DNA of 64,000 nt from Candidatus Eiseniibacteriota bacterium (GTDB lineage: Bacteria; Eisenbacteria; RBG-16-71-46; DASYSL01): positions 1,258 to 65,257 of the forward strand of contig DASYSL010000086.1 in the NCBI GenBank assembly GCA_036003365.1. The letters are read 5' to 3'. Positions within the stretch are counted from its first letter, which is position 1. Every line of letters begins with the position of its first letter. The notes beneath the pieces are model-generated. The model was not told the origin of the DNA. It was given only the letters and a program-made list of their open reading frames with translations, and searched no databases. A program made the position numbers and the translations under genes. This document shows positions 5,493 to 36,423 of this stretch, one piece after another.

Positions 5493-5559
5493 GACAATGC
5501 GATGGTTCGATCGTGCGGATCAATGGTAACACGCGCCAAGAATTTTCTGTCATCGGCGG

Positions 5560-7530: not shown

Positions 7531-10401
7531 CTAGCGGTTGTCGCTGCCCTTGCCCTTGCCGCGCGCCGCCGCCTGCGCCGCTGCGAGCCGCGCGATCGGC
7601 ACGCGGAACGGCGAGGCGGAGACGTAGTCGAGGCCGGCTTCGTGGCAGAACTCGACCGAGGCCGGGTCGCCGCCATGCTCGCCGCAGATGCCGACTTTGA
7701 GGCCGGGCCGCGCCGCGCGGCCTTCGTCCGTGCCCATGCGCACGAGGCGGCCGACGCCGCTGGCATCGAGCGAGACGAACGGATCGCCGGGCAGGATCTT
7801 GCGCTCGAGATATTCCGGTAGGAATTTGCCGGCGTCGTCGCGCGAATAGCCGAAGGTCATCTGCGTGAGGTCGTTGGTGCCGAACGAGAAGAACTCGGCC
7901 TCGCGCGCGATCTGGCCGGCGGTCAGCGCGGCACGCGGTACTTCGATCATGGTGCCGACCTTGTAGTCGACGCGGCGGTCGGCCTTCTGGAAGACCTGTT
8001 GAGCGACGCGGTCCACGATCAGGCGCTGCTCGTGGAACTCTTCGACCGTGCCCACGAGTGGAATCATGATCTCGGGATACACCTTCGCGCCGCGCTCCTC
8101 GGCCTGCACCGCGCCCTCGAGGATGGCTCGGGCCTGCATCTCGGTCACCTCGGGATAGGTGATCCCGAGCCGGCAACCGCGGTGGCCCAGCATGGGATTG
8201 AACTCGTGCAGCTCCTCGACGCGGGCGAGCAAAGCTTTCTTCTCGCGCAGCTTGCGCGTGACTGACGGCGGCACCTTGCGGCGCAGCGCGACCTCAGTCT
8301 CGAGGCGCGCGACGTCGGCGATCAGATCTTCGCGCTTGGGCAGGAACTCGTGGAGCGGCGGGTCGAGCGTGCGAATGGTGACCGGGAGCCCGTCCATGGC
8401 GAGGAACAGGTCGCGGAAGTCGCGCCGCTGGAAGGGCAGGAGCCGCGCGATCGCCCCGCGATATGCCTTCTCGGGCGCGCGGATGGCGCTCGCCAGGCCG
8501 GCAATCTCCTTGCGCAAAGCCCCTTGCGCCTTGGCCGTCGTCTCGCGGGCCAACTCGCCGCGCTTGGCGGCCAAGGCTTTCTCCTGCGCCTTGAACACGC
8601 TCGCCGAGAGGATCATCTGCACGACGTGCGGCAGGCGATCCTCGGCGAAGAACATGTGCTCGGTGCGGCAGAGCCCGATGCCCTGGGCCCCGAACTCGCG
8701 GGCCTTCTTGGCGTCGACCGGCTGGTCGGCGTTGGCCCGCACGCCCAGGCGGCGATGACGGTCGGCGATCTCCATGAAGCGGCCGAAGTCGCCGGTCAGC
8801 GCCGGCTCCTCGAGCTTGGCCACGCCCAAATAGACGATCCCGCGCGAGCCGTCGACCGAGATCTCATCGCCTTCGCGCACCGTCTTGCCGCCGGCCACGA
8901 GCTTCTTGCCGGCGACGTCGATGCGCAAATCGCTCGCGCCCACGACGCACACCCGCCCCATGCCGCGCGCCACGACGGCGGCGTGCGAGGTCATGCCGCC
9001 GGTGGCGGTCACGATGGCCTGCGCCGCGGTCATGCCGTGGATGTCGTCGGGCACCGTCTCGTTGCGCACGAGGATGACGCGATCGCCCTTCTCCCCGCGC
9101 TCGGCGGCATCGTCGGCGGTGAACACCACGGCTCCCACGGCCGCGCCCGGAGACGCCGGCAAGCCGCGCGCGATCTGGGGCAGCGCGACCTTCTCGCCCA
9201 TGTGCGGATGCAGCAGCTGATCCAAGGAGGCGGGATCGACCCGCAGGATCGCTTCCTCTTCTCCGATCAGCCCCTCTTCCACCATGTCGACCGCGATCTT
9301 CACTGCCGCGGCGGCGGTGCGCTTGCCGTTGCGGGTCTGGAGCAGGAAGAGCTTGCCTTCTTGAATCGTGAACTCGAAATCCTGGATGTCCTTGTAGTGC
9401 TTCTCGAGCATGCGCGTGACTTCGTGCAGCTCGCGATAGACGCGCGGCTGCGCCTTCTTCAGCGAGGCCAGCGGCAGCGGCGTGCGGATGCCCGCGACCA
9501 CGTCCTCGCCTTGCGCGTTCATGAGGAACTCGCCGTAGAACTCTTTCTGACCGGTCGCCGGATTGCGCGTGAAGCCCACACCCGTGCCCGAATCCTCGCT
9601 CAGGTTGCCAAACACCATCGCCTGCACGTTGACCGCGGTGCCGAGGTCGTCAGGGATGCGGTTCTGCTTGCGGTAGAAGACGGCGCGGTCGTTCATCCAC
9701 GAGCCGAACACCGCGTCACGCGCCCCATGGAGCTGGGTGATGGGATCCTGCGGGAAGTCGCGGCCGGAATGCTTGCGCACGATGGCCTTGAACTCGGTCA
9801 CGAGCGCCTGGAAGTCTTCCGCGGTCAGCTCGGTGTCCTGGGTGACGCGGCGCTTCTTCTTGCGCTCGGCGATGCGGTGCTCGAACTCTTCCTTCTCGAT
9901 GCCGAGCACGACGTTGCCGTACATCTGGATGAAGCGGCGGTAGCAATCCCAGGCGAAACGATCATTGCCGGTCTTGCGAGCGAGCCCGAGCACCGAGCGG
10001 TCGTTGAGGCCGAGATTCAAGATGGTGTCCATCATGCCCGGCATCGAGAACTTGGCGCCCGAGCGCACCGAGACGAGCAACGGATCGGCAGGATCGCCGA
10101 GCTTCTTCTCCATCACGCGCTCGAGCCGCGCCAGCGCCTCGCTCTCTTCGGTGTCGAATCCGTCCGGAAGGCGGTGCCCGTTGGCGTAGTAGTAGCGGCA
10201 GACGTCGGTGGTAATGGTGAAGCCAGCGGGCACGGGGACGCCGGCGTTGGTCATCTCGGCCAGCCCCGCGCCCTTTCCCCCCAAGAGATCCTTCATGTCG
10301 CCGCGGCCCTCGGCGCGGCCGTCGCCGAAGAAATAGACGTATTGCGTGCCGCGGGCGCGCGACTCGCGCGGGGTGGATTCGGACCGAATGGTGGTGGACA
10401 C
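7531..10401 (-). CDS. ppdK: Pyruvate, phosphate dikinase.
   Basis: 'YVYFFGDG...MKDLLGGKGAGLAEM', the PEP-utilising 'GGMTSHAAVVARGMG' and the C-terminal 'IGLCRTEHMF' TIM-barrel motif. GTG start with GGAGG 5 nt upstream at 10401. Confidence 0.9.
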   Translation of the reverse strand: MSTTIRSESTPRESRARGTQYVYFFGDGRAEGRGDMKDLLGGKGAGLAEMTNAGVPVPAGFTITTDVCRYYYANGHRLPDGFDTEESEALARLERVMEKKLGDPADPLLVSVRSGAKFSMPGMMDTILNLGLNDRSVLGLARKTGNDRFAWDCYRRFIQMYGNVVLGIEKEEFEHRIAERKKKRRVTQDTELTAEDFQALVTEFKAIVRKHSGRDFPQDPITQLHGARDAVFGSWMNDRAVFYRKQNRIPDDLGTAVNVQAMVFGNLSEDSGTGVGFTRNPATGQKEFYGEFLMNAQGEDVVAGIRTPLPLASLKKAQPRVYRELHEVTRMLEKHYKDIQDFEFTIQEGKLFLLQTRNGKRTAAAAVKIAVDMVEEGLIGEEEAILRVDPASLDQLLHPHMGEKVALPQIARGLPASPGAAVGAVVFTADDAAERGEKGDRVILVRNETVPDDIHGMTAAQAIVTATGGMTSHAAVVARGMGRVCVVGASDLRIDVAGKKLVAGGKTVREGDEISVDGSRGIVYLGVAKLEEPALTGDFGRFMEIADRHRRLGVRANADQPVDAKKAREFGAQGIGLCRTEHMFFAEDRLPHVVQMILSASVFKAQEKALAAKRGELARETTAKAQGALRKEIAGLASAIRAPEKAYRGAIARLLPFQRRDFRDLFLAMDGLPVTIRTLDPPLHEFLPKREDLIADVARLETEVALRRKVPPSVTRKLREKKALLARVEELHEFNPMLGHRGCRLGITYPEVTEMQARAILEGAVQAEERGAKVYPEIMIPLVGTVEEFHEQRLIVDRVAQQVFQKADRRVDYKVGTMIEVPRAALTAGQIAREAEFFSFGTNDLTQMTFGYSRDDAGKFLPEYLERKILPGDPFVSLDASGVGRLVRMGTDEGRAARPGLKVGICGEHGGDPASVEFCHEAGLDYVSASPFRVPIARLAAAQAAARGKGKGSDNR

Positions 10402-25244: not shown

Positions 25245-27779
25245 TCACTCGATCGGTCTCCAGTCCTTGGCATCGAGCTGGACGGCGCCCGGCCCGGTCT
25301 GCGTCAGCGGGTTGGTGTTCTTCGTGAAGCCGAACTTCTCGAGCACCTTGGTGGTCGCGATCTGCACCTGAGTGCGGTCGAGGTACCAGAGCGGGATGCC
25401 GGTCCAGTCGAGCTCCCATGCCGCCCCTGTGTGGTCGACGACGTGGAACCACACCGGCTTGCCGTCCGGCCAGTCGTTCGCGGCGCGGATTCTCTGCGTC
25501 AGGCAGCGGCCGAGGAAGAGCGTGTCGAACTCGGCCTCGGACGGGGAGATGCTATTGGCCAGCGAAAGATACGGGCAAGCGATGCTCGACGGCGGCTTGG
25601 TCGGCCAAAAGTTGAATTCCGTCTGCATGGGGATGATCGACAGCCCATCCCAGGTCGGCAGGTTCCTGACCGAGGCCGGGCCGACGCGCGGATCGCAGGT
25701 CGCGGTGCGCTGGCCCGTCCATCCATCGGGTGGCCAGGGCGCGTCCGTGCACATGAACTGCGGCAGATAGGGAATGAAATCGCCGTAGTTGTCGTTCACG
25801 GACTGAATGTCTCCCGCCCCACCCTGGTCGGCGATGTCGATCCCCGAATGGATCTTCAGGTAGTCGTACATGAAGTTTCCCGGCCACAGGATGTGCTGGC
25901 GGTCCGGCTTCGTACCCTCCCCGCGGTACGGGAAGGGCGCCGGGCCGGTGCCGGCGAAGCGCGTGACGTAGCCGGCGGCGAGCGTCTGCAGGATGCCGCT
26001 GCCGAACAGGAACGCCTTGCCGCCCTGCGACAGGTAGACGGCCAGCGTGTTGAGGTGGCCGGCGTCGGTGATGTAGTGCAGGGCGCTCTCGGGGCTCGAT
26101 CCGAACTTGCTCGTGCCGATGCGGCCCGCGTCCTTGTCGCCCGTGTACCAGACGACCGCTCGGTACTTGGTCATGATGCTCAGCGGCAAGCCGTTGGTGG
26201 GCGTGAAGCGGTAGTCGAGCGTGTCGCTCACGATATTGCCGCTGGCGTCGGAGAAGAAGCCGGAGAAGATGCCCGGTTTCGATGTTCCTCCGATTCCGAC
26301 CCAGGGAACTCCGCCCTTGGCGTAGAACAGCGTATCGAGCGTCGACTCGATCGGATAGTTCGAGTATGCCGCGTGGTCGGCGCGGTCGGTGTCGCCGCGG
26401 AAGTCGTCGAAGAACAGGATGTTCTTGGCGATGCTCGGATCCTTGAACGCTGCTTTCACCACTTCGAGCTGGATGACCATGATCGAGGTGGCGCCGGTGT
26501 TGTCACGCGCCTCGAGGTAGAAGCGGTGGAAGATGGTCGTGTCGGGATGCCCGTTCACGGTCGTGATCTGGTAGAACGGCCCGAGGATGGTGGACGTCTC
26601 GGTGGTCGACCAGCTCGACCAGCGGTAGGTCTGCGAATCGTTGTCGCGCGGCGTCTCGTTGAAGATGTCGCCGTCGATGGGGTCGAGCACCCAGCGGAAG
26701 CCGTTCAGGACGGTGCCCTGCGAGAGGGCGGCGACGTCCCAGTTCATGGGGATCGGCTGTCCCTCGGGAACTTCCAGCGGCACGACGCGCGACTCGCTCA
26801 AGTCGAAGCTCCCGCGCGCACCCTGGCTGCGGATGAAGAACGAGTTGAAGACCACGATGGCCGGCGCCTGCAGCTCGGTGCTGGGCTTGAAGCGCAGCAC
26901 GTTGTTGTTGAGGTTGAAGCGCGGCTCGTAGGCGCCCGCGATGTCGAACGCGACGACGGCGAAGTACCACACCTGACCGGGGGTCACGCCTTCGTACTGC
27001 TTGAACGTGGTGTCGGCGGACACCGAATCCCAGTCGGCGAAATTGGGCGCATCATGGCTGAAGAAATTCTGGATGTCCTGCTGGGTGGGCGTGATGCCGC
27101 CGATTTGCTGCACCTGCTGGATCGTCGACTGGCTCACCAGCTTGAACTTGTACAAGCGGGGCGGGCCGCCGACGCCTTCGCCTTCACGGTCCGGGTCGGT
27201 GCCGTGCCACTCGATGCGCACGCTGGGAGCCGTGGTGGCCGTGCTTCCCGCTCCGGGGTTGGGCGATGTGATCTGGGTGACCGGGGCCACGGTGCGCGAG
27301 CTGAAGCTCACGCTCGTGGGCGGCGAGAAGGCGCCTTCGTTGTCGACCGCCTTGATGGTGAACTCGTGGTAGTCCTTGCTCGTCACCTGGGTGGCCGGGA
27401 AGCTCCCCGAAGTCACGTTCGTGCTGCCCGGACTCGGCTCGCTCGACTTGAAGAAGATCGTCGTCTCGTTGCGGTCGATCCGCGTCCACACGGTGTCGCC
27501 CAGCGCCGGCGGGTCCACGGCGTAGATGAAATAATCGACGCGGCCGTCGGAGTCCGAGCCAGTCCACTGCAGGCGCACCTTGAAGTAGACGGAGTCGCCC
27601 GGCTGCGGGCGCGCCGTCAGCTGGACCTGCGGACGATAGTTTTGGACCCCGATCCCCCCGCCTCCCTTGGACGAACAGCCCCACGCCGCGAGCGCCAGAC
27701 AAGCGGCGAACAGCAGCCGCTGCGCTCCACCCCATGCATTGTTCATGCGGCTCACATCCTTTCGCCGTCCGGCCTTCAT
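25245..27779 (-). CDS. Large lipoprotein (844 aa), uncharacterised, paralogous to the upstream gene. Its ATGA overlaps the upstream stop.
   Basis: Lipobox 'LALAAWGC'. Repeated 'W.GSD.DG.V..F.YAV' and 'YKFKLV' beta-sandwich-like modules. Confidence 0.7.
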   Translation of the reverse strand: MKAGRRKDVSRMNNAWGGAQRLLFAACLALAAWGCSSKGGGGIGVQNYRPQVQLTARPQPGDSVYFKVRLQWTGSDSDGRVDYFIYAVDPPALGDTVWTRIDRNETTIFFKSSEPSPGSTNVTSGSFPATQVTSKDYHEFTIKAVDNEGAFSPPTSVSFSSRTVAPVTQITSPNPGAGSTATTAPSVRIEWHGTDPDREGEGVGGPPRLYKFKLVSQSTIQQVQQIGGITPTQQDIQNFFSHDAPNFADWDSVSADTTFKQYEGVTPGQVWYFAVVAFDIAGAYEPRFNLNNNVLRFKPSTELQAPAIVVFNSFFIRSQGARGSFDLSESRVVPLEVPEGQPIPMNWDVAALSQGTVLNGFRWVLDPIDGDIFNETPRDNDSQTYRWSSWSTTETSTILGPFYQITTVNGHPDTTIFHRFYLEARDNTGATSIMVIQLEVVKAAFKDPSIAKNILFFDDFRGDTDRADHAAYSNYPIESTLDTLFYAKGGVPWVGIGGTSKPGIFSGFFSDASGNIVSDTLDYRFTPTNGLPLSIMTKYRAVVWYTGDKDAGRIGTSKFGSSPESALHYITDAGHLNTLAVYLSQGGKAFLFGSGILQTLAAGYVTRFAGTGPAPFPYRGEGTKPDRQHILWPGNFMYDYLKIHSGIDIADQGGAGDIQSVNDNYGDFIPYLPQFMCTDAPWPPDGWTGQRTATCDPRVGPASVRNLPTWDGLSIIPMQTEFNFWPTKPPSSIACPYLSLANSISPSEAEFDTLFLGRCLTQRIRAANDWPDGKPVWFHVVDHTGAAWELDWTGIPLWYLDRTQVQIATTKVLEKFGFTKNTNPLTQTGPGAVQLDAKDWRPIE

Positions 27780-29722
27780 GGCGTCACCGTCTGCCAGTAG
27801 AAGGGGATCTTCGCGCGCACGATCCGGCGGTCGACGAGGCTGACCGCGTCGGGATCGGGGAAGTCGGACAGCTCGAACTCGAAATAGTGGCGTCCCGGAG
27901 GGAAGACGGATGGATCAGTCGGAATGTTGATGGGAAGCGTTTCGCCCGAGTGCATGAGCTGGCCCTGCGACGAGCTCCAGCCTTCGTCGTCGGCAAGGTT
28001 ATCGCCGTCGGTGCGGAAACGGACGCGGACCAGGAACGGGGCGGGACCGGAGCTGGTCGAATCGGAGTCGTACATGAACAGGCGCGCGACGAAGTTGGGC
28101 GCCGTGATCAGGGTATCGGGCGTCGGCGCGAAGCCCACGATCTGCGGCAGGAAGTATGGGTTGTAGTTCGAGAACCAGTTCAGCACGAGGCGACGCAGCA
28201 CCGTGTCGGCCGGAGCCAGCGAGCCGTTGTTGTAGTTGTAGATGTACTCGCGCGGGTTGCGGATGCGGCGGTCGCGGCCGAGATTGCCGTCCACCGAGCG
28301 CACCTGGGCGAACGATTTTCCGGTGAACCCGGCGCCCGGGAAGTACGGCACGTTGAAGTACAGCTCCGGCCGATAGCTGGGTGAGAGCGGATCGAAGTTG
28401 GGATAGATCTCGGTGAACGACGGCGTCTGCGGCACACCGGTCGTGAGCTCGGTGATGATGCGGTATTCGACGCCGATCGGCGAGCCGTTGGCCGGGCCGG
28501 GAATCGCCACCACGCCCTTGTCGGTGGGCGGCGGATTGCTGGTGAGCACCGCGTAGGGCGAATCCTTGTCGCGGCCACCGGCGAAGAAGTAAAGACCCTC
28601 GGCATTGCGCGCCACGGTGTCCGAGTCGACGCGGATGTACCAGTGCCACTCGAATCCGATGCGAACCTTCTCGAGGAAGGTCGCCATCGGCTTGCGGTCG
28701 GCGGGCAGCGTGTTGAAGCGCCCCGGGCCGAGCCACTTGTCGAGCACCGCGGGCGCCGCGCCCGTCGACGGATCGCCGAGCACGTAGAGGCCGCGGCCGT
28801 CACGCAAGGAGGCGGCGCGCACATCGGGATCGGTGGTGTCCGGGCCCGCCCACCAGGTGTCGGGATCGAAGTTCACGACGAAGCGGCGCAGCGAGTCGGG
28901 GAACGTGGTGCCGCCCGCCTCGTCGACCGAGCGCACGCGGAAGACGTTGAGGCCTACGGGAGGCGGCGCCGGATTCGGGCCGGTGCCCGTGCCATACGAC
29001 ACCTGCTTGGTGAGCGAGTCGACGGACTGGTAGTCGGTCTCCACGAGCTTGTAGCGGTAGCCCGCGATCTGGCTCTGCCAATCCTTGTCGAATCCGTGCC
29101 ACCCGAAGTAGACCGCGGAGCCGACCGGAATGGTGTCGCGCGGCAACGACGTCGCCTGCGTGGGATCCTGCGGATCGGTGAGATTGATCGCGAACGGTTG
29201 CGAGACCACGCCGCCGCCCGGCGCCGGCACGAAGATGTTGCCCTCGGCGCGCGCGAAGTCCCACACGATGCCGGGCAGGTTGCGATCGCGCGCCACGAAG
29301 CGCGTGAACGCCGGCGTGGGATCCGCCTTGCCCTCGTTGTCGACGGCGAACACGTAGAGCCCGTGCTCACGGTCGGTGCCGAGACCCTCGTGGATGTTGA
29401 AGATGAACACCGAGTCGGTCTTGGTCGTGAAATGCCACTGGCTCGGCTTGGGCCCAGGCAACGGATTGCCGGACAGCGTCTCGGTCACGGCGAAGTAGAA
29501 GCCGGCCACGGCGCCATCCACGTCGGAGCCCGACCAGTGCACGTGATAGCGGTACGGCGCACGGTTCAAGGGCTTGCCACCGATCGAATCGAGAGGAGCC
29601 GCGGTGAGATAGGTCTCAGGGGCGCGGTTTCGATCCGTATTCGGGGCGACCGTCTTCCGGCAGGAGATTTGGGCCAGGGCGACAAGCAAAACGACAAAAA
29701 TTCCCCACCACTTCAAACGCAT
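27776..29722 (-). CDS. Large lipoprotein (648 aa), uncharacterised paralog of the 844-aa lipoprotein.
   Basis: Signal peptide with 'LAQISC' lipobox-like cysteine. 'RYHVHWSGSDVDGAVAGFYFAV', 'YRYKLVETD' and 'VFRVRSVDEAGG' modules shared with the downstream gene. Confidence 0.7.
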   Translation of the reverse strand: MRLKWWGIFVVLLVALAQISCRKTVAPNTDRNRAPETYLTAAPLDSIGGKPLNRAPYRYHVHWSGSDVDGAVAGFYFAVTETLSGNPLPGPKPSQWHFTTKTDSVFIFNIHEGLGTDREHGLYVFAVDNEGKADPTPAFTRFVARDRNLPGIVWDFARAEGNIFVPAPGGGVVSQPFAINLTDPQDPTQATSLPRDTIPVGSAVYFGWHGFDKDWQSQIAGYRYKLVETDYQSVDSLTKQVSYGTGTGPNPAPPPVGLNVFRVRSVDEAGGTTFPDSLRRFVVNFDPDTWWAGPDTTDPDVRAASLRDGRGLYVLGDPSTGAAPAVLDKWLGPGRFNTLPADRKPMATFLEKVRIGFEWHWYIRVDSDTVARNAEGLYFFAGGRDKDSPYAVLTSNPPPTDKGVVAIPGPANGSPIGVEYRIITELTTGVPQTPSFTEIYPNFDPLSPSYRPELYFNVPYFPGAGFTGKSFAQVRSVDGNLGRDRRIRNPREYIYNYNNGSLAPADTVLRRLVLNWFSNYNPYFLPQIVGFAPTPDTLITAPNFVARLFMYDSDSTSSGPAPFLVRVRFRTDGDNLADDEGWSSSQGQLMHSGETLPINIPTDPSVFPPGRHYFEFELSDFPDPDAVSLVDRRIVRAKIPFYWQTVTP

Positions 29723-29837
29723 CCAGCGTCCTCCAGAAACGCCCTGAATTGTGCCCGGTGTGACAAGAATCTAACGATTGGGGGCGTGGTCCGTCAACCA
29801 CCCGATCGCGGCCAAGAACCTTCCCGCCAGCGCGCCG

Positions 29838-30080
29838 GGGGCCTGCCCTCGCCCTAGAACATGGGCGGGCGTCGGGCAGGCCCCCGCGTGGCGGTGGGCT
29901 CTACGCACAAACCTACTGGTTCACTTCGCGTCCCTGCCGTCAATTCCCTCAGTTTCCCCGATTTGGACTCCCCAGGCTTCAGATGGCGATGCCCCACCTT
30001 GCTGGCTTCCTGGTGCGGGGTCGCGGGCTTTCCCGAAGGGCCTCGTGTGTCCGGCCCGAGGGAAAGCCCGGGACTTCGCA
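29838..30080. promoter_or_regulatory. Structured intergenic region with two long inverted repeats. It lies between the end of the 1420-aa gene and the start of the lipoprotein operon.
   Basis: First inverted repeat is GGGGGCCTGCCC...GGGCAGGCCCCC at 29838-29886. Second is CGGGCTTTCCC-(GGGCC..GGCCC)-GGGAAAGCCCG at 30034-30080. Confidence 0.4.
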
Positions 30081-30085
30081 CCACC

Positions 30086-30121
30086 AAAAAAAAGAAGGCG
30101 GGGGGTCTCCCCCCCGCCCTC
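30086..30121 (-). terminator. Rho-independent terminator for the 1420-aa secreted-protein gene.
   Basis: Minus strand reads GGCGGGGGGGAGACCCCCCGCC followed by TTCTTTTTTTT, 25 nt downstream of the stop. Confidence 0.75.
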
Positions 30122-30146
30122 TGCGCTTTCGCGCCCGACTCAGACG

Positions 30147-33100
30147 TTAGTTGCCCGCCTGACCCAGGAGCACCATGCGCTGGCTGTTGTTCTGGAACTG
30201 CACGCCAGGAGCCGACAGGCGATAGAAGTACACGCCCGAGGCAGCCTTCGTGCCGCTCGAAGTGACGCCGTCCCAGCGATAGAGGTTGTCCGCGCCCACA
30301 TGACCCTCGACGGTCGCCTCATGCACGAGACGGCCCGCGACGTTGTAGAAGCGGATCGTGACCTTCGCCGGCTGAGCCAGCGAGAACCGCACCGACGCCG
30401 CACCCGCAACCGAGGGGTTGGGGAACGCGCCGCGCACGAAGTTCAGCGCCAGACCAGGAACGTCGCCCACGCCGATGACCGGGTTCACACGCGCGCACTG
30501 GTTGAACGCCGTCAACGCGTCGTTCATCCACTCGCGGCGACCGTAGTCGTTCGCGGCGATGTTCGACACCGCGGCAGTCGTCGGGTCCGAAGGACCACCC
30601 CAACCGCGCAGGTTGTCGAACGAGAAGCCGTCGAGCAGCGTGGCATAGAAGCGACCCGCGCCCGCGTCCAGACGACGATACACCGACGAATAGAACGGCC
30701 CAGCAGAGCCGGCACCACGGTCCGAGACGTCTTCGTAACGGGCCGCGCGCTCAGCACCGGGGACGCCACCATCGCGATCGATGATGTCGAGGATGCCCTG
30801 GCACGAGTTGAAGATGCCGTAACGGCGATTGGAGTGGAACGGATCGGCAGCACCCGGATCAGCATCCAGCGGCTTGAAGATGGCCACCGTCGACTGGTTC
30901 CCGGTGAAGTCGAAGTAGTTGTCCTGCACGAACAGGCCGCCCATGCGCGACAAGAGGATGCCGCACGAGGTTCCGGGCGAGGTGGCGAGATCCTGAGTCA
31001 GACCGTCACCGTTGCCCCAGAAGGCCTTCTCGTTCCCCGACGCCGCGCGGTCGAGCCACTGGTTGATCATACCCGCGTCGTCCGCCTGCTCCTGACCCGT
31101 GCCCGAGCCGTCATGCATGGCACCGGCCGACTCGTCGAGGTCCACGGAGTCCCAGATGATCGTGTTGTAGTAGCGGTCAAGCATGTCGACCGTCGGACCC
31201 TGCTTGCTCTGCCGGTCCGAAACGCCCGGATCGACACCGCCACCAGGGATGCGGCAACCAATACGGTCACCCTCTCCCGACTCGGAAGCGCGAATGTCGA
31301 ACTTGTCGTACGCCAGGCCCATCATGCCCAGGTTCGGCGACACGAAGCCGGCAGGATTGTTGACGTCGTTCGACGTGGCCACGGCCTTCCAGCCGCGGTC
31401 GGCGCCGTTGTCCGTGCCATAACCGAGCGAGTCGAGCGCGCCCACAACCGCGGGCTCGCCGCCGCGCCGGTCACCGGCATCGACGTAGAGCAAGCAAGCC
31501 AGACCGTTGCCGCCGAACCGCGTGTCCTTCCACATGTCGGGGAAGACATCGAAGCTGTCGAAACGGAGCTGGTCGAAGTAGCCGCCCATTCCGGTCTGCA
31601 GCGATACCGTCGTCGTATCCGGCGACATGTTCAGTAGCGCGTGCGTCCCGTCGGAAGCAGCCGAGCGACGGACGAAGTACTCGATGTGCGTACCGGGCGT
31701 GAACAGACCGTCCGGCAGAATCTTCGTGCCCTCTTTCGTCGTCGTACCCGCCGGATAACCATCACCGCTCGGCGGATAGGTCGTCCCGAGGGCCAAGCAT
31801 GAGGCCGGGTCGCAGCAGAGGTTCGACTGGTTGACCGGGCCGCTGAAATCGATCACGTAGCAGTAGCTGACCGTCTTGGCGAGCACGCCCGAATTGGCGC
31901 CGCCGTGCGGATCGGTCTCCTCGTAGGTGCCCTGCCAGTTGTCGGGCGCCGTCTGGCCGATGCTCTTGAACGCGACCGGATACAGCTGGGTCGCCTGAGC
32001 CGAGTCCATACGCGCCGAGTTCCACGTGTTGGGATCCCACTTGGTGCCGCTGTGGTGAGCGCCCGCACCCGCAGGGGTGCCTACATCACCGTCGTTGGCC
32101 ATGTACTGGCCCCAGAACGAACCGTCTCCAGGAACAGCCAGGTTGCCAGCAACGTTGCCCAGCGCCACGACCTTCAACAGCGCGCTGTTCACGTTGCCCT
32201 TGGTGGAGTAGTTGCCCGGACCCGGCTTGATACGGAAGACCAGGTCCATGCGCGCATCGGCGCCCGCCGAGGTGTAGAGGAGCGAGTCACCAGAGATGAC
32301 GCCCTCACCACCGCCCGTCTTGGCGTTGTTCAGACCGTCCTTCACCAGAGCGGTGACGGTGTCGAACCCAGCCGAGCCCGGAGCGATGCTCTCGTTGAAC
32401 GGGAACGTGTCGCCCAAGAGGAACCAGAAGAAGGTGCTCAGAGACGGCTTCGCAGCGCCGGCTCCGGTGATGAAGCCCATGCGGATGTTGTCCCAGTACG
32501 TGCCGTCGGTCTGACCGCACGCCGTCGCCGAGAAGCGGGCGCAGCGCGTCTGGTTCTCGACCGCAACCTTGACCGAGTCCGCGTGAGCGATGTTGATGAA
32601 GGCGCCGAGGTCGCCAGGATCCGAGTCGTACGTGACGCAGACCGGCGTGCCGTAGTCATTGATGGCGCCCAGTGTGTTGACCGAGGACCACTCGACGTTC
32701 GTCGGTCCCTCGACCTGCTTCTCACCCGAGTTCGCCAGTGCCGGGTCGTACTTCACTTGGATCGCGTACCAGAAGAACACGCCCGAGAGACCGGCATCGT
32801 CGAAGCCAGAGTAGAAGTCGAACTGGAGGTTCGTGTTGCTGGCATCCGTCCGCAGCGTCGGGGGAGTCCCCTGCGCCGTGGCACGGCCCGAGAGATCGTG
32901 CAGGACGATCGTCGGGCTGATGGACCAGTTCTGCGACTCGAGGTGGAACGTGTGCGCCGGGTTGGCGCCCTCGGGGTCGTGGTTGGACTGGACCAGGATG
33001 TTCTCGCTCAGGTTACAGAACAGCTTGCCGCAAGGATCGGCGAACGGCAGGTCGTTCTGGTTGTGAATGTGGCCGTAGTACGCGGGCGAGCGGCCCGACG

Positions 33101-34409
33101 TGATCCACGACGACGACGGCGAGTTCTCGACGAACGAGGCACCCGACCGCGTGAAGCGCGGCTTGATGTCGCTGGCCGACTCGAAGGTCGTCGTGCTGCC
33201 GTACACGCTCACGTTGTCGACCACGACTGCTCCGGTCGTGGAGTTCCACGCCGAGGCCGTCGGGGTGCTCGCGGGACGAGCGTCATCGAAGAAACGGTTC
33301 GTCTTGACGCGGAGGACGACGCGAACCGAGCTCCAGCCCGTGCCAGCCGGAATCGCCAGGGGGCCCGTATTGGCCGTCGGTGCGACGCCCGTCACGGAGA
33401 AGAGGAGCTTCGGCGCAGCGGCGCCGCCGAGACTGAAATCGAGCGCATCCGAAAGATAGCGGTGAGCCTTGTCATAGACTCCCGACTCCTTCGGGGCGCC
33501 GATCCATACTTCGAACGAGTCCACCGGCTCTGCACCCGAGTTGGCGAGGCAGACCAGGTTGGCGCTCGAGAACGGATCGGGGGTGAACCAGCCACCACCG
33601 TTGCCCGGAGAAGTGCCCGGATCCGTCGTCCCGCCGTTGTTCAGCTCGGGACGGTAATCCATCGAGATCGTTCCGGCGCCGGTGTAGGTGAAGTCCCTGT
33701 ACAGGAGCTGGTCCCACTGCGACGCGTAACCAGGCCAAGCGCTACGGATGTTCGACGAAGTCGCGCGGAAATCCACGTGCTCCTCGTCCGCCGTGTACTT
33801 GTTGTTGGTGTACGAATCGGTGGGAGCATTGGCATCACCGGACATGCGCAGACCGCACCAAGCCGATCCGTTGCCCGTGATGTTGCTGGCGAATCCAGGA
33901 GCCACGCGGCCCGTGTCAGGCACCGACGTGAGGTTGTCCTGGTGCCACACGCCGGCCAGACCGTGCATGCGCGTCGCGCGGCCGTTGGCGAAGCGATTGA
34001 CCGTGAGGTTGTGGTCGCCGTTGTTGATGTCGTTGCCGAAATCGTAGTACCAGAACGGCCGGCTTACGGTCGTCAGGTACTTCGTGGTGCCGTCCGACGC
34101 CTGCGGGGCCTGGACGAACTCCCAGAACTGGGAGGAGTCCGTGCCCGTGATGTCGCCGGCATAGTAGGGCGTATCGAAATCCCACTTGCCGCCCACACCG
34201 ACCTTGTTGGGATCGGTGCTCGACGCCAAGAAGCCGTACCAAACGGTGGCCGCGGCTGCGGTCGAGAATCCCGACCGATAGCGCGGGGCGTTCAGTGCCG
34301 GCTTCTTCACGGCAACGTCCTGGTCGGTGGTCTGCGCAAGGGCAAAGCCCTGGCCCAGAACCATCGTTCCCAGCACGAGGCCGAGAAGCAGAGCAAGGAA
34401 ACGACGCAT
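30147..34409 (-). CDS. Giant secreted protein (1420 aa) with T9SS/Por-type C-terminal sorting domain. No other domains recognised.
   Basis: Signal peptide MRRFLALLLGLVLGTMVLGQGFALAQ. C-terminal 'FPNPS...VRFSLAQPAKVTIRFYNVAGRLVHE...GVYFYRL...RMVLL'. ATG at 34409 with GGAGG 8 nt upstream. Confidence 0.8.
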   Translation of the reverse strand: MRRFLALLLGLVLGTMVLGQGFALAQTTDQDVAVKKPALNAPRYRSGFSTAAAATVWYGFLASSTDPNKVGVGGKWDFDTPYYAGDITGTDSSQFWEFVQAPQASDGTTKYLTTVSRPFWYYDFGNDINNGDHNLTVNRFANGRATRMHGLAGVWHQDNLTSVPDTGRVAPGFASNITGNGSAWCGLRMSGDANAPTDSYTNNKYTADEEHVDFRATSSNIRSAWPGYASQWDQLLYRDFTYTGAGTISMDYRPELNNGGTTDPGTSPGNGGGWFTPDPFSSANLVCLANSGAEPVDSFEVWIGAPKESGVYDKAHRYLSDALDFSLGGAAAPKLLFSVTGVAPTANTGPLAIPAGTGWSSVRVVLRVKTNRFFDDARPASTPTASAWNSTTGAVVVDNVSVYGSTTTFESASDIKPRFTRSGASFVENSPSSSWITSGRSPAYYGHIHNQNDLPFADPCGKLFCNLSENILVQSNHDPEGANPAHTFHLESQNWSISPTIVLHDLSGRATAQGTPPTLRTDASNTNLQFDFYSGFDDAGLSGVFFWYAIQVKYDPALANSGEKQVEGPTNVEWSSVNTLGAINDYGTPVCVTYDSDPGDLGAFINIAHADSVKVAVENQTRCARFSATACGQTDGTYWDNIRMGFITGAGAAKPSLSTFFWFLLGDTFPFNESIAPGSAGFDTVTALVKDGLNNAKTGGGEGVISGDSLLYTSAGADARMDLVFRIKPGPGNYSTKGNVNSALLKVVALGNVAGNLAVPGDGSFWGQYMANDGDVGTPAGAGAHHSGTKWDPNTWNSARMDSAQATQLYPVAFKSIGQTAPDNWQGTYEETDPHGGANSGVLAKTVSYCYVIDFSGPVNQSNLCCDPASCLALGTTYPPSGDGYPAGTTTKEGTKILPDGLFTPGTHIEYFVRRSAASDGTHALLNMSPDTTTVSLQTGMGGYFDQLRFDSFDVFPDMWKDTRFGGNGLACLLYVDAGDRRGGEPAVVGALDSLGYGTDNGADRGWKAVATSNDVNNPAGFVSPNLGMMGLAYDKFDIRASESGEGDRIGCRIPGGGVDPGVSDRQSKQGPTVDMLDRYYNTIIWDSVDLDESAGAMHDGSGTGQEQADDAGMINQWLDRAASGNEKAFWGNGDGLTQDLATSPGTSCGILLSRMGGLFVQDNYFDFTGNQSTVAIFKPLDADPGAADPFHSNRRYGIFNSCQGILDIIDRDGGVPGAERAARYEDVSDRGAGSAGPFYSSVYRRLDAGAGRFYATLLDGFSFDNLRGWGGPSDPTTAAVSNIAANDYGRREWMNDALTAFNQCARVNPVIGVGDVPGLALNFVRGAFPNPSVAGAASVRFSLAQPAKVTIRFYNVAGRLVHEATVEGHVGADNLYRWDGVTSSGTKAASGVYFYRLSAPGVQFQNNSQRMVLLGQAGN

Positions 34410-34539
34410 GTTGTCAGCCTCCAACGAGACGGCTCGAGTCCGCCTCTGAGAGTAGAGAGAACGACTCCCGGGAGGAGTATCCAGAAGAACAATCCGACGC
34501 GCCGGCTTCACCCGCCCGAGAACCTTGTCCGCTCGCAAT

Positions 34540-35112
34540 CCATCCGGCGACGACCCCGTTCCGGTGCGCGATGGCAGACATGGGTGAAGAGGATTTCGGT
34601 TTTCTCAAGGAACCGCCTCCGACTTCGCAATGCGTATGCATGCAATTGCGAGTGCGAGCGAGGTGTCGTTTCTGGTGGCGCATCCGGGAGAACGGAGAAA
34701 TCGAGCATTCGCCGACATGGATGCACCGGTGTGGCATCTTTGGAGAATCCGGCCTCGCATCACCCCTTTCCGAATCCATGATGGTGGTCGACTCCGAACG
34801 AATCGACGCGATTACGAGTGCGCGAATCACGTCGAAACACGTCCGCGTCCTCTCGCGAGGACGGAAGCAAGCCTTAGGGATGAAGATGAAGCCAAGTCCT
34901 GCACTCACCCCGGCAGCGATCGGAATCCATTCGACTGTTCCCAACTCCCATCGTCCGAAATGCGGCCCTTCGGGTCGGGCTGCTCGTCACGCCTCGGACA
35001 GGCGCGGGGGAATGCCACTGGGTGTAAAACAACACAACCGTAGGGTTTACATGATCATTGCGTCAAGCAGATTTTGCCTACAAACACCGTGCCAGCAGGT
35101 CGAAAGGGGAGT
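34540..35112. other. 570-bp non-coding region with noticeably lower GC, forming the long leader/promoter region of the giant secreted-protein gene. Contains a near-palindrome cgcaatgcgtatgcatgcaattgcg.
   Basis: Embedded ORFs have low GC3 unlike real genes here. The palindrome is at about 34626-34650. Confidence 0.5.
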
Positions 35113-36423
35113 TCACTGAGCGGTCAGGTGGCCGTCCTCGATCGCGTAACGCCGTGTGCGCCAAGCATCCAGACGCGGATCCTGGCTGGCCACGAGGGCC
35201 GCGCCACCGGTCGAAGCGAAGCGTCTCAAGGTGGTTTCGAGAACCGAAACTCCAGCTCGGTCGAGCCCCGTCGAGGGCTCGTCCAGAAGCCAGAGGCCGG
35301 CGTTCTGGGCCAGCAGTCCGGCCCACGCCGCGCGCCGCCGCTCGCCGTGACTGAGTGCTGTGGGCGGGCGCGCCCCATGCGCCGCCGGATCCAATCCCAC
35401 TTCGGCGAGCGCCGCACGCACGTCGCGCTCACGCTCGTGCCCGGAGCGCTTCGATCCCATCGCGACGTCTTCACCGACGGTCGTCGAGACGAGTTGGTCC
35501 TCGGGTGACTGCAGGAGCACGCCGAGGCGCGCGCTGCCTGCGAGCTCGATCGCGCCCTGTTGCGGCTCGAGGACGCCCGCGAGAAGCAGAAGAAGCGTCG
35601 TCTTGCCGGCGCCGCTCGCGCCCGTGAGCAGGACGATCTCCCCCGCTCCGATCTCGAGATCGACGCCGCACACGAGCGGTGTCGCAGGCGCGTATCCGAA
35701 CCCAAGTGAACGCGCGCGCAGGAGTGCGGGGCCAGGCGCGAACGATTCCAGTCCCCCGGCATCGCGCTCGAGCGGGTCATCCGTTGCCGCGGCGAGCCGG
35801 CCGCGCTCGAGCCTGAGCCGGCGATCGGCGGCCGCCCATTCTTCCTCGAGCTGGGTGACGAAAACGGCACCGCGGCCGCGCTCCACCTCGCGCCGCACCA
35901 GTGCCCGCAAGCGCTCGCGCGCGCGCGCGTCGAGATAGACGCCGGGCTCGTCGAGGACCAGATAGCGCGGATCGCCGGCGAGGGCGGCGGCCAGTCCGAG
36001 CCGGCTCTTCTCGCCGCCCGAGAGGCTCTGCGGCGTGCGGCCGGCGAGGGCGGCGAGATCGAATTCCTCGACCATCCGGCGCACACGCTCGCGGATGGCC
36101 GCGCGCTCCCAACCCAGATTCTCGAGCGGGAAGGCGATCTCTTCTTCGAGGGTGGGCGCGACCAGCTGGCCTTCGGGCTCCTGGAACACCATGCCCACGG
36201 CGCGCCGCCCGGGCTCGTGCGGGGCGAGCGCCACGCCATCGGCGAGCACGCTGCCGGCGCGCGGCCCCAGCAAGCCGGCCAGCGCCAGGCAGAAGAGACT
36301 CTTGCCGCCCCCGTTGGCGCCGGTCAGCGCCACCCACTCGCCGGGGGCGAGCGCGAAGTCGAGATCGCGGAGCACGAGCGGACCGCCCGGCGGCCCCACG
36401 GCCAGACCGCGCGCTTCGAGCAT
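35113..36423 (-). CDS. ABC transporter ATP-binding protein with two fused ATPase domains (ECF/CbiO-type energy-coupling module).
   Basis: Two Walker A motifs ('GANGGGKS', 'GASGAGKT'), two signature motifs ('LSGGEKSR', 'LSHGERRR') and two Walker B motifs ('LVLDEP', 'WLLDEP'). Confidence 0.8.
   Translation of the reverse strand: MLEARGLAVGPPGGPLVLRDLDFALAPGEWVALTGANGGGKSLFCLALAGLLGPRAGSVLADGVALAPHEPGRRAVGMVFQEPEGQLVAPTLEEEIAFPLENLGWERAAIRERVRRMVEEFDLAALAGRTPQSLSGGEKSRLGLAAALAGDPRYLVLDEPGVYLDARARERLRALVRREVERGRGAVFVTQLEEEWAAADRRLRLERGRLAAATDDPLERDAGGLESFAPGPALLRARSLGFGYAPATPLVCGVDLEIGAGEIVLLTGASGAGKTTLLLLLAGVLEPQQGAIELAGSARLGVLLQSPEDQLVSTTVGEDVAMGSKRSGHERERDVRAALAEVGLDPAAHGARPPTALSHGERRRAAWAGLLAQNAGLWLLDEPSTGLDRAGVSVLETTLRRFASTGGAALVASQDPRLDAWRTRRYAIEDGHLTAQ

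What the first reader, a model, noticed from the sequence alone, without database searches (positions are those of the whole stretch)
34540..35112. 570-bp low-GC non-coding island upstream of the giant secreted-protein gene
In a window that is about 70% GC and nearly gap-free, this stretch is visibly AT-richer. It carries an imperfect 25-bp palindrome (cgcaatgcgtatgcatgcaattgcg, about 34626-34650). It also holds only low-GC3 ORFs, e.g. the 176-aa track ORF 34414..34944, which ends 2 nt before the real start. It could be a complex regulatory region, such as a silencer or xenogeneic-silencing target, or it could encode an sRNA or long structured 5' leader. It could also be a remnant of acquired DNA.
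Basis: seen in the sequence. Interest (0 to 1): 0.5.

Follow-up and report, generated by a model that had tools for sequence, protein, structure and literature searches.

The report
Conserved structured leader before giant gene
The AT-richer gap before a giant secreted-protein gene in this uncultured Eisenbacteria genome is not leftover DNA but a non-coding element of about 0.62 kb, kept nearly unchanged across related genomes and most likely a folded mRNA leader that controls production of the protein.

Summary
The gap 34410-35112 (703 bp) is the lowest-GC stretch of the window: 57-58% against 68.5%, z about -3.2. It shows no coding signature in any frame. The imperfect palindrome sits at 34626-34650.

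The gap is not junk or acquired DNA. The same gap of about 640-730 nt lies between the same two genes (a fused ECF-type ABC ATPase and a giant T9SS-tail protein) in every related Eisenbacteria contig recovered. It is as conserved as non-synonymous codon positions (84.5% against 59% at four-fold sites). Indels are 1-2 nt and mismatches show no 3-base periodicity.

At its far end is an invariant TTGAC-N17/18-TAnnnT promoter. The roughly 620 nt that follow fold into a consensus structure with compensatory changes (37 pairs against 13.5±2.7 in shuffles), stronger on the gene's strand.

An invariant box GAAACGACACCUC can clamp both the ribosome-binding site and codons 2-5.

Nothing in Rfam matches. 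The best reading is a new, large cis-acting leader RNA. The RNA role and the mechanism are inferred, not shown.

The parts
35113..36423 (-). Upstream gene: fused double ABC ATPase (ECF/CbiO type). It follows LarC, LarB-like and Dus genes. Context only.
   Evidence: Pfam ABC_tran x2. NCBIfam cbiO/ECF ATPase. 100% identical to an NCBI 'Candidatus Eisenbacteria' MAG protein.
35079..35094 (-). Sigma-54-like motif TGGCACG-N4-TTGTA. Doubtful.
   Evidence: Conserved in the six closest leaders only. It is absent in L018, L019, L010 and L003, and the -12 element lacks the canonical GC.
35037..35066 (-). Sigma-70-type promoter: -35 TTGACG, 18-nt spacer, -10 TACGGT.
   Evidence: TTGAC and TA...T are invariant in the 8 aligned full-length leaders (7 distinct genomes), while the spacer varies. 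A regex for TTGACN-N17/18-TAnnnT finds a single match at the equivalent place in those leaders and in L010 and L003. It is the only promoter-like hit in the L007 homologue, against 0.1 expected. The window's own -10 is too weak for the scan.
34410..35030 (-). Predicted leader RNA of about 620 nt. The 5' end is inferred from the -10, not mapped.
   Evidence: 84.5% identity to L007 and about 75% to L001/L011, where four-fold sites of the flanking ABC gene are 59% and 51-56%. Consensus structure has 161 pairs, 37 with compensatory changes. Alignment z is -8.0 on the sense strand and -3.2 on the antisense.
35011..35017 (-). 5' arm UGGCAUU of the helix closing the distal domain of about 280 nt. Its partner is GAUGCCA at 34732-34738.
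   Evidence: Helix 1: 96% of cells paired, with only one-sided changes compatible with pairing. It is also present in the single-sequence MFE fold.
34874..34930 (-). Candidate 18-codon upstream ORF (MDSDRCRGECRTWLHLHP*). Ambiguous.
   Evidence: Frame and stop are kept in window, L007, L001, L011 and L018, but a 2-nt deletion breaks the frame in L016. There is no third-position bias (read from the alignments).
34847..34862 (-). Hairpin GUCCUCGCGAGAGGAC.
   Evidence: Fold z is -3.3, with 0 of 200 shuffles as good. L018 keeps the hairpin with two compensatory pairs and loop length varies (helix 11).
34751..34771 (-). Purine box GGAAAGGGGUGAUGCGAGGCC, which marks the start of the conserved core.
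   Evidence: Nearly invariant in all 12 leaders, including the short type L010/L003. In the 11-sequence consensus, GGGG pairs with the CCUC of the invariant box.
34677..34727 (-). Covarying nested hairpin domain (helices 14 and 15).
   Evidence: 9 of its 16 pairs show changes on both sides that keep the pair. The same holds in the 7-sequence alignment that includes the paralogue leaders.
34653..34672 (-). Invariant box GAAACGACACCUCGCUCGCA. It contains the anti-SD CCUC at 34660-34663.
   Evidence: Invariant in the 8 full-length leaders. The 12-mer GACACCUCGCUC is identical in all 12 distinct leaders and the 13-mer GACACCUCGCUCG in all but L013. GAAACGAC pairs with CDS nt +5..+12 (helix 16). 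RNAduplex clamps SD plus codons 2-5 in all ten long-type leaders tested, at -9.9 to -14.8 kcal/mol, against -9.1 to -10.3 (sd 2.2-2.6) for shuffled boxes; only L019 is no better than its shuffles.
34625..34651 (-).
   Evidence: The 3' arm is invariant and the 5' arm changes while keeping pairing. The loop is 4-8 nt, and about 30 nt in L010/L003. The hairpin is deleted in paralogue leaders L008/L013/L014.
34606..34620 (-). Internal SD-like GGAGGC followed after 7 nt by TTG. It is homologous to the true SD and start codon of the short-type leaders.
   Evidence: GGAGG-N7-ATG is the real start in L010/L003. The following codons are similar (TTGAGAAAACCG against ATGAGAAAGTCG). Conserved in all long-type leaders.
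34414..34608 (-). Possible 64-codon upstream ORF running from the internal TTG to a TGA 4 nt before the main ATG. Translation is unproven.
   Evidence: It ends 4 nt before the ATG in window, L007, L018, L008, L014 and L013. It is in frame with the CDS in the L001/L011/L016/L017 clade and ends 17 nt before the ATG in L019. Compensating frameshifts mean the peptide is not conserved.
34448..34478 (-). Hairpin ACUCCUCCCGGGAGU (second anti-SD CCUCC at 34471-34475) followed by the invariant CU-rich tract CGUUCUCUCUACUCUC. It is terminator-like.
   Evidence: The terminator-like scan hits it in both the window and L007, though at chance frequency. The 22-mer is identical in four sequences and the 20-mer retrieved four metagenome contigs. 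Variants CCUCC, CUUCC and CCUUC all still pair with GGAGG.
34426..34446 (-). Covarying hairpin immediately upstream of the SD.
   Evidence: G-C/A-U/G-U exchanges among window, L007, L001, L008, L018 and L019 (helix 24).
34398..34422 (-). Ribosome-binding region: SD GGAGG 34418-34422, ATG 34407-34409, and CDS box GUCGUUUC 34398-34405.
   Evidence: Identical in nearly all leaders. Third-position identity of codons 2-10 is 0.81, against 0.57-0.65 further downstream.
30147..34409 (-). Regulated gene: 1420-aa secreted protein with a signal peptide and a C-terminal T9SS type A sorting domain.
   Evidence: TIGR04183 scores 31 bits against a cutoff of 23, and Pfam FlgD_ig 30.5 against 27. Signal peptide MRRFLALLLGLVLGTMVLGQGFALAQ.

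Best explanation
The gap is the promoter plus a long, conserved, structured 5' leader of the giant T9SS-cargo mRNA, about 620 nt.

Transcription most likely starts about 7 nt after a conserved sigma-70-type promoter (35066-35037). The RNA folds into three parts:
- a distal domain closed by UGGCAUU:GAUGCCA;
- a core of about 165 nt: purine box, covarying hairpins, the invariant box GAAACGACACCUCGCUCGCA, the palindromic hairpin, then GGAGG;
- an RBS-proximal module of about 200 nt.

Inferred mechanism: the invariant box acts as an anti-Shine-Dalgarno clamp. Its CCUC pairs with the SD GGAGG, and its GAAACGAC pairs with codons 2-5 (GUCGUUUC), looping out the AUG and blocking initiation. The same CCUC can instead pair locally with the internal decoy GGAGG beside the palindromic hairpin, or with the upstream purine box. 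A second anti-SD (CCUCC) and a CU tract offer further alternatives. A signal read by the upstream domains would therefore decide whether the ribosome-binding site is open. That signal could be a ligand, a protein, an sRNA or temperature, and it is unknown.

Shown: the GC dip, the lack of coding signal, syntenic conservation under purifying selection, the promoter consensus, and compensatory pair changes.

Inferred: the transcription start, RNA-level function, the clamp and switch, and the direction of regulation.
For: Conservation: the ABC gene, a gap of 640-730 nt and the giant gene occur in that order in L007/L012, L001, L011/L017, L016, L018 and L019, and in two JGI contigs without DNA. ABC identity goes down to 48%.

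Gap identity is 84.5% to L007, against 59% at four-fold sites and 86% at codon position 2. It is about 75% to L001/L011, against 51-56% and 78-79%.

Non-coding: indels are mostly 1-2 nt. GC3 is flat in all six frames, and mismatches show no 3-periodicity, p = 0.57-0.90. No Pfam hit.

Promoter: -35 TTGAC and -10 TA...T are invariant in the 8 aligned full-length leaders (7 distinct genomes), and a TTGACN-N17/18-TAnnnT match lies at the equivalent place in L010 and L003.

Structure: 161 consensus pairs with 90.9% of cells paired. 37 pairs change on both sides, against 13.5±2.7 in shuffles (0 of 500) and 12-20 in slid controls. The covariation score is 0.200 against 0.05-0.10. Column-shuffle z is -8.0 on the sense strand and -3.2 on the antisense.

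Clamp: RNAduplex gives the same bipartite pairing in all ten long-type leaders tested, and in nine of them it is more stable than their shuffled boxes. In the short-type relatives L010/L003 the same box pairs contiguously with the true SD in the MFE fold. Synonymous sites of codons 2-10 are unusually conserved.

The palindrome's arm spacing varies from 4 to about 30 nt. That fits a hairpin, not a dimeric protein site.
Against: No transcript data exist, so the 5' end and even the transcribed strand are inferred.

The single-sequence fold is not more stable than dinucleotide shuffles: z is -0.86 on the sense strand and +0.79 on the antisense.

The alignment z-score used column shuffles that do not preserve dinucleotides. 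The tested structure was derived from the same 7-8 sequences, which belong to only about 4-6 independent lineages, so the covariation statistics are indicative, not R-scape-grade.

The RNAalifold covariation term is near zero or slightly positive.

The clamp helices are invariant and so carry almost no covariation support. Duplex energies beat shuffled boxes only at p about 0.02-0.08, and not in L019 (p about 0.44).

Two different alignments gave mutually exclusive helices for the proximal module. This may reflect a switch or just uncertainty.

The window's own -10 (TACGGT) is weak.
Confidence: 0.6

Rival explanations
1. A DNA-level regulatory region. The conserved blocks would be binding sites for several transcription factors, nucleoid proteins or enhancer-binding proteins, possibly serving a sigma-54 promoter. 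The palindrome would be an operator.
For: A TGGCACG-N4-TTGTA motif is conserved in six leaders. There is a palindrome with an invariant half-site GCATTGCGA. The region is AT-richer.
Against: Conservation is continuous over about 650 nt rather than in short islands. Variable segments change in a pair-preserving way, including many G-U pairs that would be A-C mismatches on the other strand. The structure signal is strand-asymmetric. Spacing between the palindrome arms varies from 4 to about 30 nt. The sigma-54-like motif lacks the -12 GC and is absent from L018, L019, L010 and L003. Conservation extends into synonymous sites of the first codons.
Confidence: 0.12
2. The gap encodes one or more independent small or large non-coding RNAs, for example the distal domain of about 280 nt as a separate transcript or a 3'-UTR-derived RNA of the ABC operon. 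The giant gene would have its own proximal promoter.
For: The distal domain is a self-contained unit closed by its own helix. It is missing or much reduced in the paralogue leaders L008/L013/L014, which keep only the proximal part of about 390 nt. There is no terminator between the ABC gene and the gap.
Against: No intrinsic terminator separates the modules. The only conserved promoter consensus is at the distal end. The element is always directly upstream of, and co-oriented with, a giant-protein gene, including at a locus with a different, divergent upstream neighbour (L008).
Confidence: 0.13
3. Regulation works through translated upstream ORFs. One candidate is the 64-codon ORF from the relic start (GGAGG-N7-TTG, 34608) ending at a TGA 4 nt before the main ATG, giving termination-reinitiation coupling. 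The other is the 18-codon Cys-containing ORF at 34930-34874. This could coexist with the RNA-structure model.
For: The SD-N7-TTG is conserved and homologous to the true start of short-type genes. The ORF stays open and stops 4 nt before the ATG in 4 of 6 lineages, even in L018 where it is 20 codons longer. JGI gene callers also call an ORF ending 4 nt before the gene. The 18-codon ORF keeps frame and stop in 5 sequences.
Against: In the L001/L011/L016/L017 clade the long ORF is in frame with the main CDS, and in L019 it stops 17 nt upstream. Compensating frameshifts mean the peptide is not conserved. Stop-poor high-GC sequence keeps frames open by chance; my own estimate is about a 15% chance for 64 codons. 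The 18-codon ORF is frame-shifted in L016. There is no codon-position bias.
Confidence: 0.12
4. An ordinary spacer, or a remnant of horizontally acquired DNA or a xenogeneic-silencing target, whose lower GC simply reflects relaxed or foreign composition.
For: It is the lowest-GC stretch of the window. The giant gene itself is about 4 points below the window's GC.
Against: Purifying selection equals that on non-synonymous sites. Synteny is conserved in all relatives. There is no similarity to plasmids or phages. A GC of 58% is far from typical silencer targets (this last point is from general knowledge).
Confidence: 0.03

Closest known systems
Long inhibitory 5' leaders that fold back on the ribosome-binding site, e.g. 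the E. coli rpoS leader opened by the sRNAs DsrA, RprA and ArcZ (recalled from general knowledge, not tested here)
   Same: A leader several hundred nt long. An upstream segment pairs with the SD and start region at long range. Expression would depend on an event that disrupts this pairing.
   Different: No sequence or Rfam relationship. Here the anti-SD box pairs on both sides of the AUG, with the SD and with codons 2-5. There is an internal decoy SD derived from an ancestral start. The host is an uncultured FCB-group phylum. The trans factor, if any, is unknown.
Translational riboswitches and RNA thermometers with an SD, anti-SD and anti-anti-SD architecture
   Same: A conserved structured domain lies upstream of an invariant anti-SD (CCUC) and the SD. 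Alternative partners exist for the anti-SD: the purine box GGGG and the decoy GGAGG.
   Different: No Rfam family matches, including ROSE, FourU and all riboswitch classes. At about 620 nt it is several times larger than typical riboswitches. No ligand or temperature link is known. Aptamer-like evidence is limited to covariation in a few lineages.
Large, lineage-restricted structured non-coding RNAs found in long intergenic regions (OLE, GOLLD, HEARO, ROOL, raiA; in Rfam)
   Same: Unusually long, conserved, multi-helix non-coding element with variable-length hairpins. It is restricted to one lineage and was found as a conspicuous intergenic region.
   Different: No covariance-model match to any of them. 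This element is always attached, in cis and co-oriented, to one gene family, and its 3' end overlaps the start codon. That points to a leader rather than a free RNA.

Membership tests
Any described RNA family (Rfam 15: riboswitches, thermometers, leaders, 6S, large ncRNAs) | A covariance-model match at the family's gathering score | tested here: not met
   There were 0 matches at gathering score over the whole window. At E<=10 on 34300-35250 only chance miRNA/lncRNA hits appeared, far below threshold.
Protein-coding gene or pseudogene | Codon-position GC bias as in this genome (GC3 about 0.8-0.9), 3-base periodicity of substitutions, indels in multiples of 3, and domain hits | tested here: not met
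   GC3 is 0.56-0.61 in all six frames, and mismatch phase gives p 0.57-0.90. Indels are mostly 1-2 nt. No Pfam hits.
Sigma-70-type promoter | -35 TTGACA-like and -10 TAnnnT hexamers 17±1 nt apart, conserved while the spacer varies | tested here: met
   TTGAC and TA...T are invariant in the 8 aligned full-length leaders (7 distinct genomes), and a single TTGACN-N17/18-TAnnnT match lies at the equivalent place in L010 and L003. It is the only scan hit in L007, with 9 of 12 matches. The window's own copy has a weak -10.
Sigma-70-type promoter | An experimentally mapped transcription start | not testable with these tools
   No transcriptome data are available for this uncultured organism.
Sigma-54 promoter | TGGCAC-N5-TTGC, with GG at -24 and GC at -12 | tested here: not met
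   The -24 half is present (TGGCACG). The -12 half is TTGT or TTGA rather than TTGC. The motif is absent in L018, L019, L010 and L003.
Structured cis-regulatory leader RNA (general kind) | Conserved secondary structure supported by compensatory base changes, on the strand of the downstream gene | tested here: met
   37 of 161 pairs have both-side changes, against 13.5±2.7 in shuffles and 12-20 in slid controls. Sense z is -8.0 and antisense -3.2. Caveats: few lineages, and the structure was derived from the same alignment. The single-sequence z is not significant.
Riboswitch | An expression platform with mutually exclusive pairings that hide or expose the SD or a terminator | tested here: inconclusive
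   The anti-SD box can pair with the main SD plus codons 2-5, with the decoy GGAGG, or with the purine box. All partners are invariant, so there is no covariation to discriminate between them.
Riboswitch | Specific ligand binding by the aptamer | not testable with these tools
   This needs in-line probing or ITC. The genomic context (nickel-pincer cofactor genes and an ECF ATPase upstream) gives no clear ligand clue.
Intrinsic terminator / attenuator | A GC-rich hairpin directly followed by a U-tract | tested here: inconclusive
   ACUCCUCCCGGGAGU followed by CGUUCUCUCU is flagged in both the window and L007, but at the frequency expected by chance. The tract is a C/U mix. It is highly conserved.
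Horizontally acquired island / xenogeneic-silencing target | Patchy presence at the site among relatives, similarity to mobile DNA, and strongly AT-rich composition | tested here: not met
   It is present at the syntenic site in all relatives. No plasmid or phage match. GC is only about 10 points below the genome. Silencer binding itself is not testable.
Leader-peptide / upstream-ORF control | A conserved SD, start codon and open frame, with conserved position of the stop relative to the regulated element | tested here: inconclusive
   SD-N7-TTG is conserved. The stop lies 4 nt before the ATG in 4 of 6 lineages, is in frame with the CDS in one clade, and lies at -17 in L019.

The most novel reading that the evidence does not exclude
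This is a previously undescribed class of large (0.35-0.7 kb) structured regulatory RNA specific to Candidatus Eisenbacteria. It gates translation of a family of giant type-IX-secreted proteins through a bipartite clamp on the ribosome-binding site. In the long form it carries a fossil translation start, re-used as a decoy SD or a coupling upstream ORF.
Probability: 0.45. Interest if true: 0.7.

Novelty: new variant of a known kind. Interest (0 to 1): 0.6.

Why it matters
If correct, this adds a new, unusually large cis-regulatory RNA family from a phylum with no cultured members and no described regulatory RNAs. Two literature searches for Eisenbacteria with riboswitch or type IX secretion terms found nothing.

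It would also give a first handle on how these bacteria control their giant surface or secreted proteins.

The short and long forms also show how a leader may grow. A downstream start site seems to have replaced the ancestral one, and the old SD and start codon remain inside the leader. That reading is inferred from homology of the two forms.

In practice, gene callers place spurious ORFs of 109-176 aa in this element. Recognising it would improve annotation.

Tried and rejected
- Rfam at gathering score over the whole window and at E<=10 over the gap found nothing real.
- Protein-coding readings of the gap were rejected. The evidence was the six-frame GC3, ORF conservation, the indel spectrum, Pfam on the four long ORFs tested, and mismatch periodicity.
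- The exact-protein contig look-up for the giant protein, and for the four closest N-terminal homologues from the 'src' source, returned nothing on record. Two ABC-homologue contigs had gene maps but no DNA.
- P0007 (L015) turned out to be the second gene of a tandem pair with an 88-bp spacer and no leader.
- Single-sequence thermodynamic stability of the whole leader is not significant.
- The sigma-54 promoter reading was rejected as the main promoter.
- The 18-codon upstream ORF is broken in L016.
- The palindrome as a dimeric operator was rejected because the arm spacing varies.
- Mobile or acquired DNA: no plasmid or phage similarity.
- nhmmer profiles of the distal, proximal and core parts found no second copy in the window. 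They also found none upstream of the more distant giant homologues L002, L004, L005, L006 and L009.
- A covariance model was not built.
Full report
**1. What is in the window**

The window is 68.4% GC. Its ABC ATPase gene (35113-36423, minus strand) is 100% identical to a protein of a Candidatus Eisenbacteria MAG.

On the minus strand the order is Dus, a LarB-like gene (AIRC), LarC, a fused double ABC ATPase of ECF/CbiO type, the gap, and then a 1420-aa protein at 30147-34409. That protein has a signal peptide and a C-terminal T9SS type A sorting domain (TIGR04183 31 bits against a cutoff of 23; FlgD_ig 30.5 against 27).

The true start is ATG 34409-34407, preceded by GGAGG at 34422-34418. The non-coding interval is therefore 34410-35112, 703 bp.

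**2. The observation**

It is the lowest-GC stretch of the whole window at 300, 573 and 703 nt scales, with z -3.1 to -3.2.

No frame carries the genome's coding signature. GC3 is 0.56-0.61 in all six frames, against 0.79-0.94 in genes. None of the four long ORFs tested has a Pfam hit.

The 25-nt palindrome is at exactly 34626-34650. It is imperfect, and on its own only mildly unusual.

Three details of the finding need correction. The gap is 703 bp, not 570. The 176-aa ORF ends 4 nt, not 2, before the ATG. The window is 68%, not 70%, GC.

**3. Conservation**

Relatives of the giant protein and of the ABC ATPase were fetched from genome and metagenome collections.

The order ABC gene, long gap, giant gene recurs in L007 (identical to L012), L001, L011 (close to L017), L016, L018 and L019. 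The gaps are 643-733 nt. It also recurs in two JGI contigs for which only gene maps were available, with gaps of 715 nt. ABC identity falls to 48% across this set.

The gap aligns end to end. It is 85.6% identical to L007 and 76% to L001 and L011 by BLAST.

A region-by-region comparison gives the following identities to the window:

| Partner | Four-fold sites (ABC gene) | Codon position 2 | Gap |
|---|---|---|---|
| L007 | 59% | 86% | 84.5% |
| L001/L011 | 51-56% | 78-79% | about 75% |

The gap therefore evolves like non-synonymous sites. Neutral or foreign DNA would not be alignable at this divergence.

Indels are mostly 1-2 nt, and mismatches show no 3-base periodicity (p 0.57-0.90). The constraint is thus not on a protein.

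The gap is also the AT-richer part of each related locus. It has no similarity to plasmid or phage records.

**4. Family structure**

- **Long type with distal domain.** These are the ABC-linked copies, about 640-730 nt from the -35 to the ATG.
- **Paralogue leaders.** L008, L013 and L014 share only the proximal part of about 390 nt. L008 is in the same MAG as L007 but sits next to a divergent, unrelated gene.
- **Short type.** L010 and L003 lie upstream of giant homologues only about 31% identical. Their leaders are about 345-365 nt.

All 12 distinct leaders share a core of 145-172 nt. The core contains a purine box GGAAAGGGG, a hairpin domain, the box with the identical 12-mer GACACCUCGCUC, a hairpin, and GGAGG.

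In the short type that GGAGG is the real SD (GGAGG-N7-ATG). In the long type the homologous GGAGG-N7-TTG (34620-34606) lies 211 nt upstream of the real ATG. The next codons are still similar (TTGAGAAAACCG against ATGAGAAAGTCG).

The long leader therefore seems to contain a fossil of the ancestral start.

**5. Promoter**

At the distal end, TTGAC and the -10 TA...T are invariant in the 8 aligned full-length leaders while the spacer varies, and L010 and L003 carry a matching TTGACN-N17-TAnnnT at the equivalent place. In L007 it is the only promoter-like site, against 0.1 expected. In the window it is TTGACG-N18-TACGGT at 35066-35037, with a weak -10 that the scan does not call.

A sigma-54-like TGGCACG-N4-TTGTA lies just upstream at 35094-35079. 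It lacks the -12 GC and is missing from four of the leaders, so I treat it as doubtful.

**6. RNA structure**

RNAalifold on eight full-length leaders gives 161 pairs. Counted independently:
- 90.9% of cells are paired.
- 37 pairs change on both sides while staying paired. Shuffles give 13.5±2.7 (0 of 500 reach the observed value) and slid controls give 12-20.
- The covariation score is 0.200, against 0.05-0.10 for slid controls.

Column-shuffled alignments give z = -8.0 for the sense strand and -3.2 for the antisense.

The best-supported helices are these:
- the nested hairpins at 34727-34677, with 9 of 16 pairs compensatory;
- the GUCCUC hairpin at 34862-34847;
- the distal long-range helices 4, 6 and 13;
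- the hairpin just before the SD at 34446-34426.

Its 3' arm GCAUUGCGA is invariant, and its 5' arm changes but keeps pairing. The loop is 4-8 nt, and about 30 nt in L010/L003. The whole hairpin is deleted in the paralogue leaders. This is how a variable RNA stem-loop behaves, not how a dimeric operator behaves.

Caveats:
- There are only about 4-6 independent lineages.
- The structure was derived from the same alignment it was tested on.
- The covariation energy term is about 0.
- The single-sequence fold is not unusually stable, z -0.86.

**7. Mechanism (inferred)**

The invariant box GAAACGACACCUC (34672-34660) is complementary to two places flanking the start codon. CCUC pairs with the SD GGAG. 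GAAACGAC pairs with GUCGUUUC, which is coding nt +5 to +12 (34405-34398).

RNAalifold (helix 16), the single-sequence MFE fold and RNAduplex on the ten long-type leaders tested all find this. Duplex energies are -9.9 to -14.8 kcal/mol, against -9.1 to -10.3 (sd 2.2-2.6) for shuffled boxes; L019, the weakest, is no better than its shuffles.

In the short type the same box pairs contiguously with the true SD in the MFE fold.

Third positions of codons 2-10 are 81% identical across leaders, against 57-65% downstream. These codons are T-ending, which is rare in this genome. That fits an RNA-level constraint on the early coding sequence.

Other partners for the anti-SD exist: the decoy GGAGG next to the palindromic hairpin and the purine box.

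A second anti-SD, CCUCC (34475-34471), varies as CUUCC and CCUUC, each of which still pairs with GGAGG. It sits in a terminator-like hairpin followed by an invariant CU tract.

Two alignments gave mutually exclusive helices for this proximal module.

Taken together this looks like a translational switch, and possibly also an attenuation switch, whose input is unknown.

**8. Upstream ORFs**

From the relic TTG (34608) a 64-codon frame runs to a TGA 4 nt before the ATG. The arrangement by lineage is:

| Lineage | Where the frame ends |
|---|---|
| window/L007, L018, L008/L014, L013 | 4 nt before the ATG |
| L001/L011/L016/L017 | in frame with the coding sequence |
| L019 | 17 nt before the ATG |

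The peptide is not conserved.

An 18-codon ORF (34930-34874) keeps its frame in five sequences but is broken in L016.

Translation of either ORF is possible but unproven.

**9. Comparison with known systems**

No Rfam family matches. Two literature searches on Eisenbacteria with riboswitch or type IX secretion terms returned nothing.

Functionally the closest analogues are long inhibitory leaders that fold back on the ribosome-binding site (rpoS-type, from general knowledge) and SD/anti-SD riboswitch platforms. In size and lineage restriction it resembles the large ncRNAs found in long intergenic regions.

It is not a member of any of these families.

**10. Verdict**

My confidence in each layer of the reading:

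| Claim | Confidence |
|---|---|
| The element is functional and non-coding | about 0.95 |
| It acts as a cis leader RNA | about 0.6-0.7 |
| The specific clamp/decoy mechanism | about 0.35-0.4 |

It is a new variant of a known kind, and the interest is moderate to high.

Noticed in passing
window 5400-6100: This is the second-lowest-GC stretch of the window (58-60% GC, z -2.6 to -2.8). It overlaps ORF 5560-6762 (+), which has no Pfam hit. It may be a compositionally atypical gene.
   Followed up: partly
L016 1555-1560; L017 3862-3867; L018 3675; L019 3931; L001 9232; L011 10166: In most relatives the called ABC ORF runs to, or stops at, the TGA inside the -35 hexamer TTGAC of the leader promoter. 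The end of one gene and the promoter of the next therefore overlap. In the window they are 47 nt apart.
   Followed up: partly
window 34380-34409 and homologues: The first 10 codons of the giant gene are almost identical at the nucleotide level across genomes. Third-position identity is 0.81, against 0.57-0.65 downstream. They use T-ending codons that are rare in this GC3-rich genome.
   Followed up: yes
L015 1-1000; L002 5529, 10001, 14737: Giant-protein homologues occur in tandem arrays: two in L015 with an 88-bp spacer containing a hairpin, and three in L002. The downstream copy in L015 lacks the long leader.
   Followed up: partly
L001 (CAVSLB010000009.1) 9891-10011: The record is titled 'uncultured Alphaproteobacteria' but carries the same Eisenbacteria-type locus and leader. 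Its giant gene has a frame break about 30-40 codons after the ATG, either a sequencing error or a pseudogene.
   Followed up: no
window 25245-29722 (minus strand): Two large genes downstream of the giant gene (648 and 844 aa) have no Pfam or NCBIfam hit. A 424-nt gap (29723-30146, 66% GC) separates them from the giant gene.
   Followed up: no
JGI contigs of P0023 and P0018 (no DNA); window 34414-34944: Automatic gene callers annotate an ORF of 109-176 aa inside the leader, ending 4 nt before the giant gene. Compensating frameshifts between relatives show it is not a conserved protein.
   Followed up: yes
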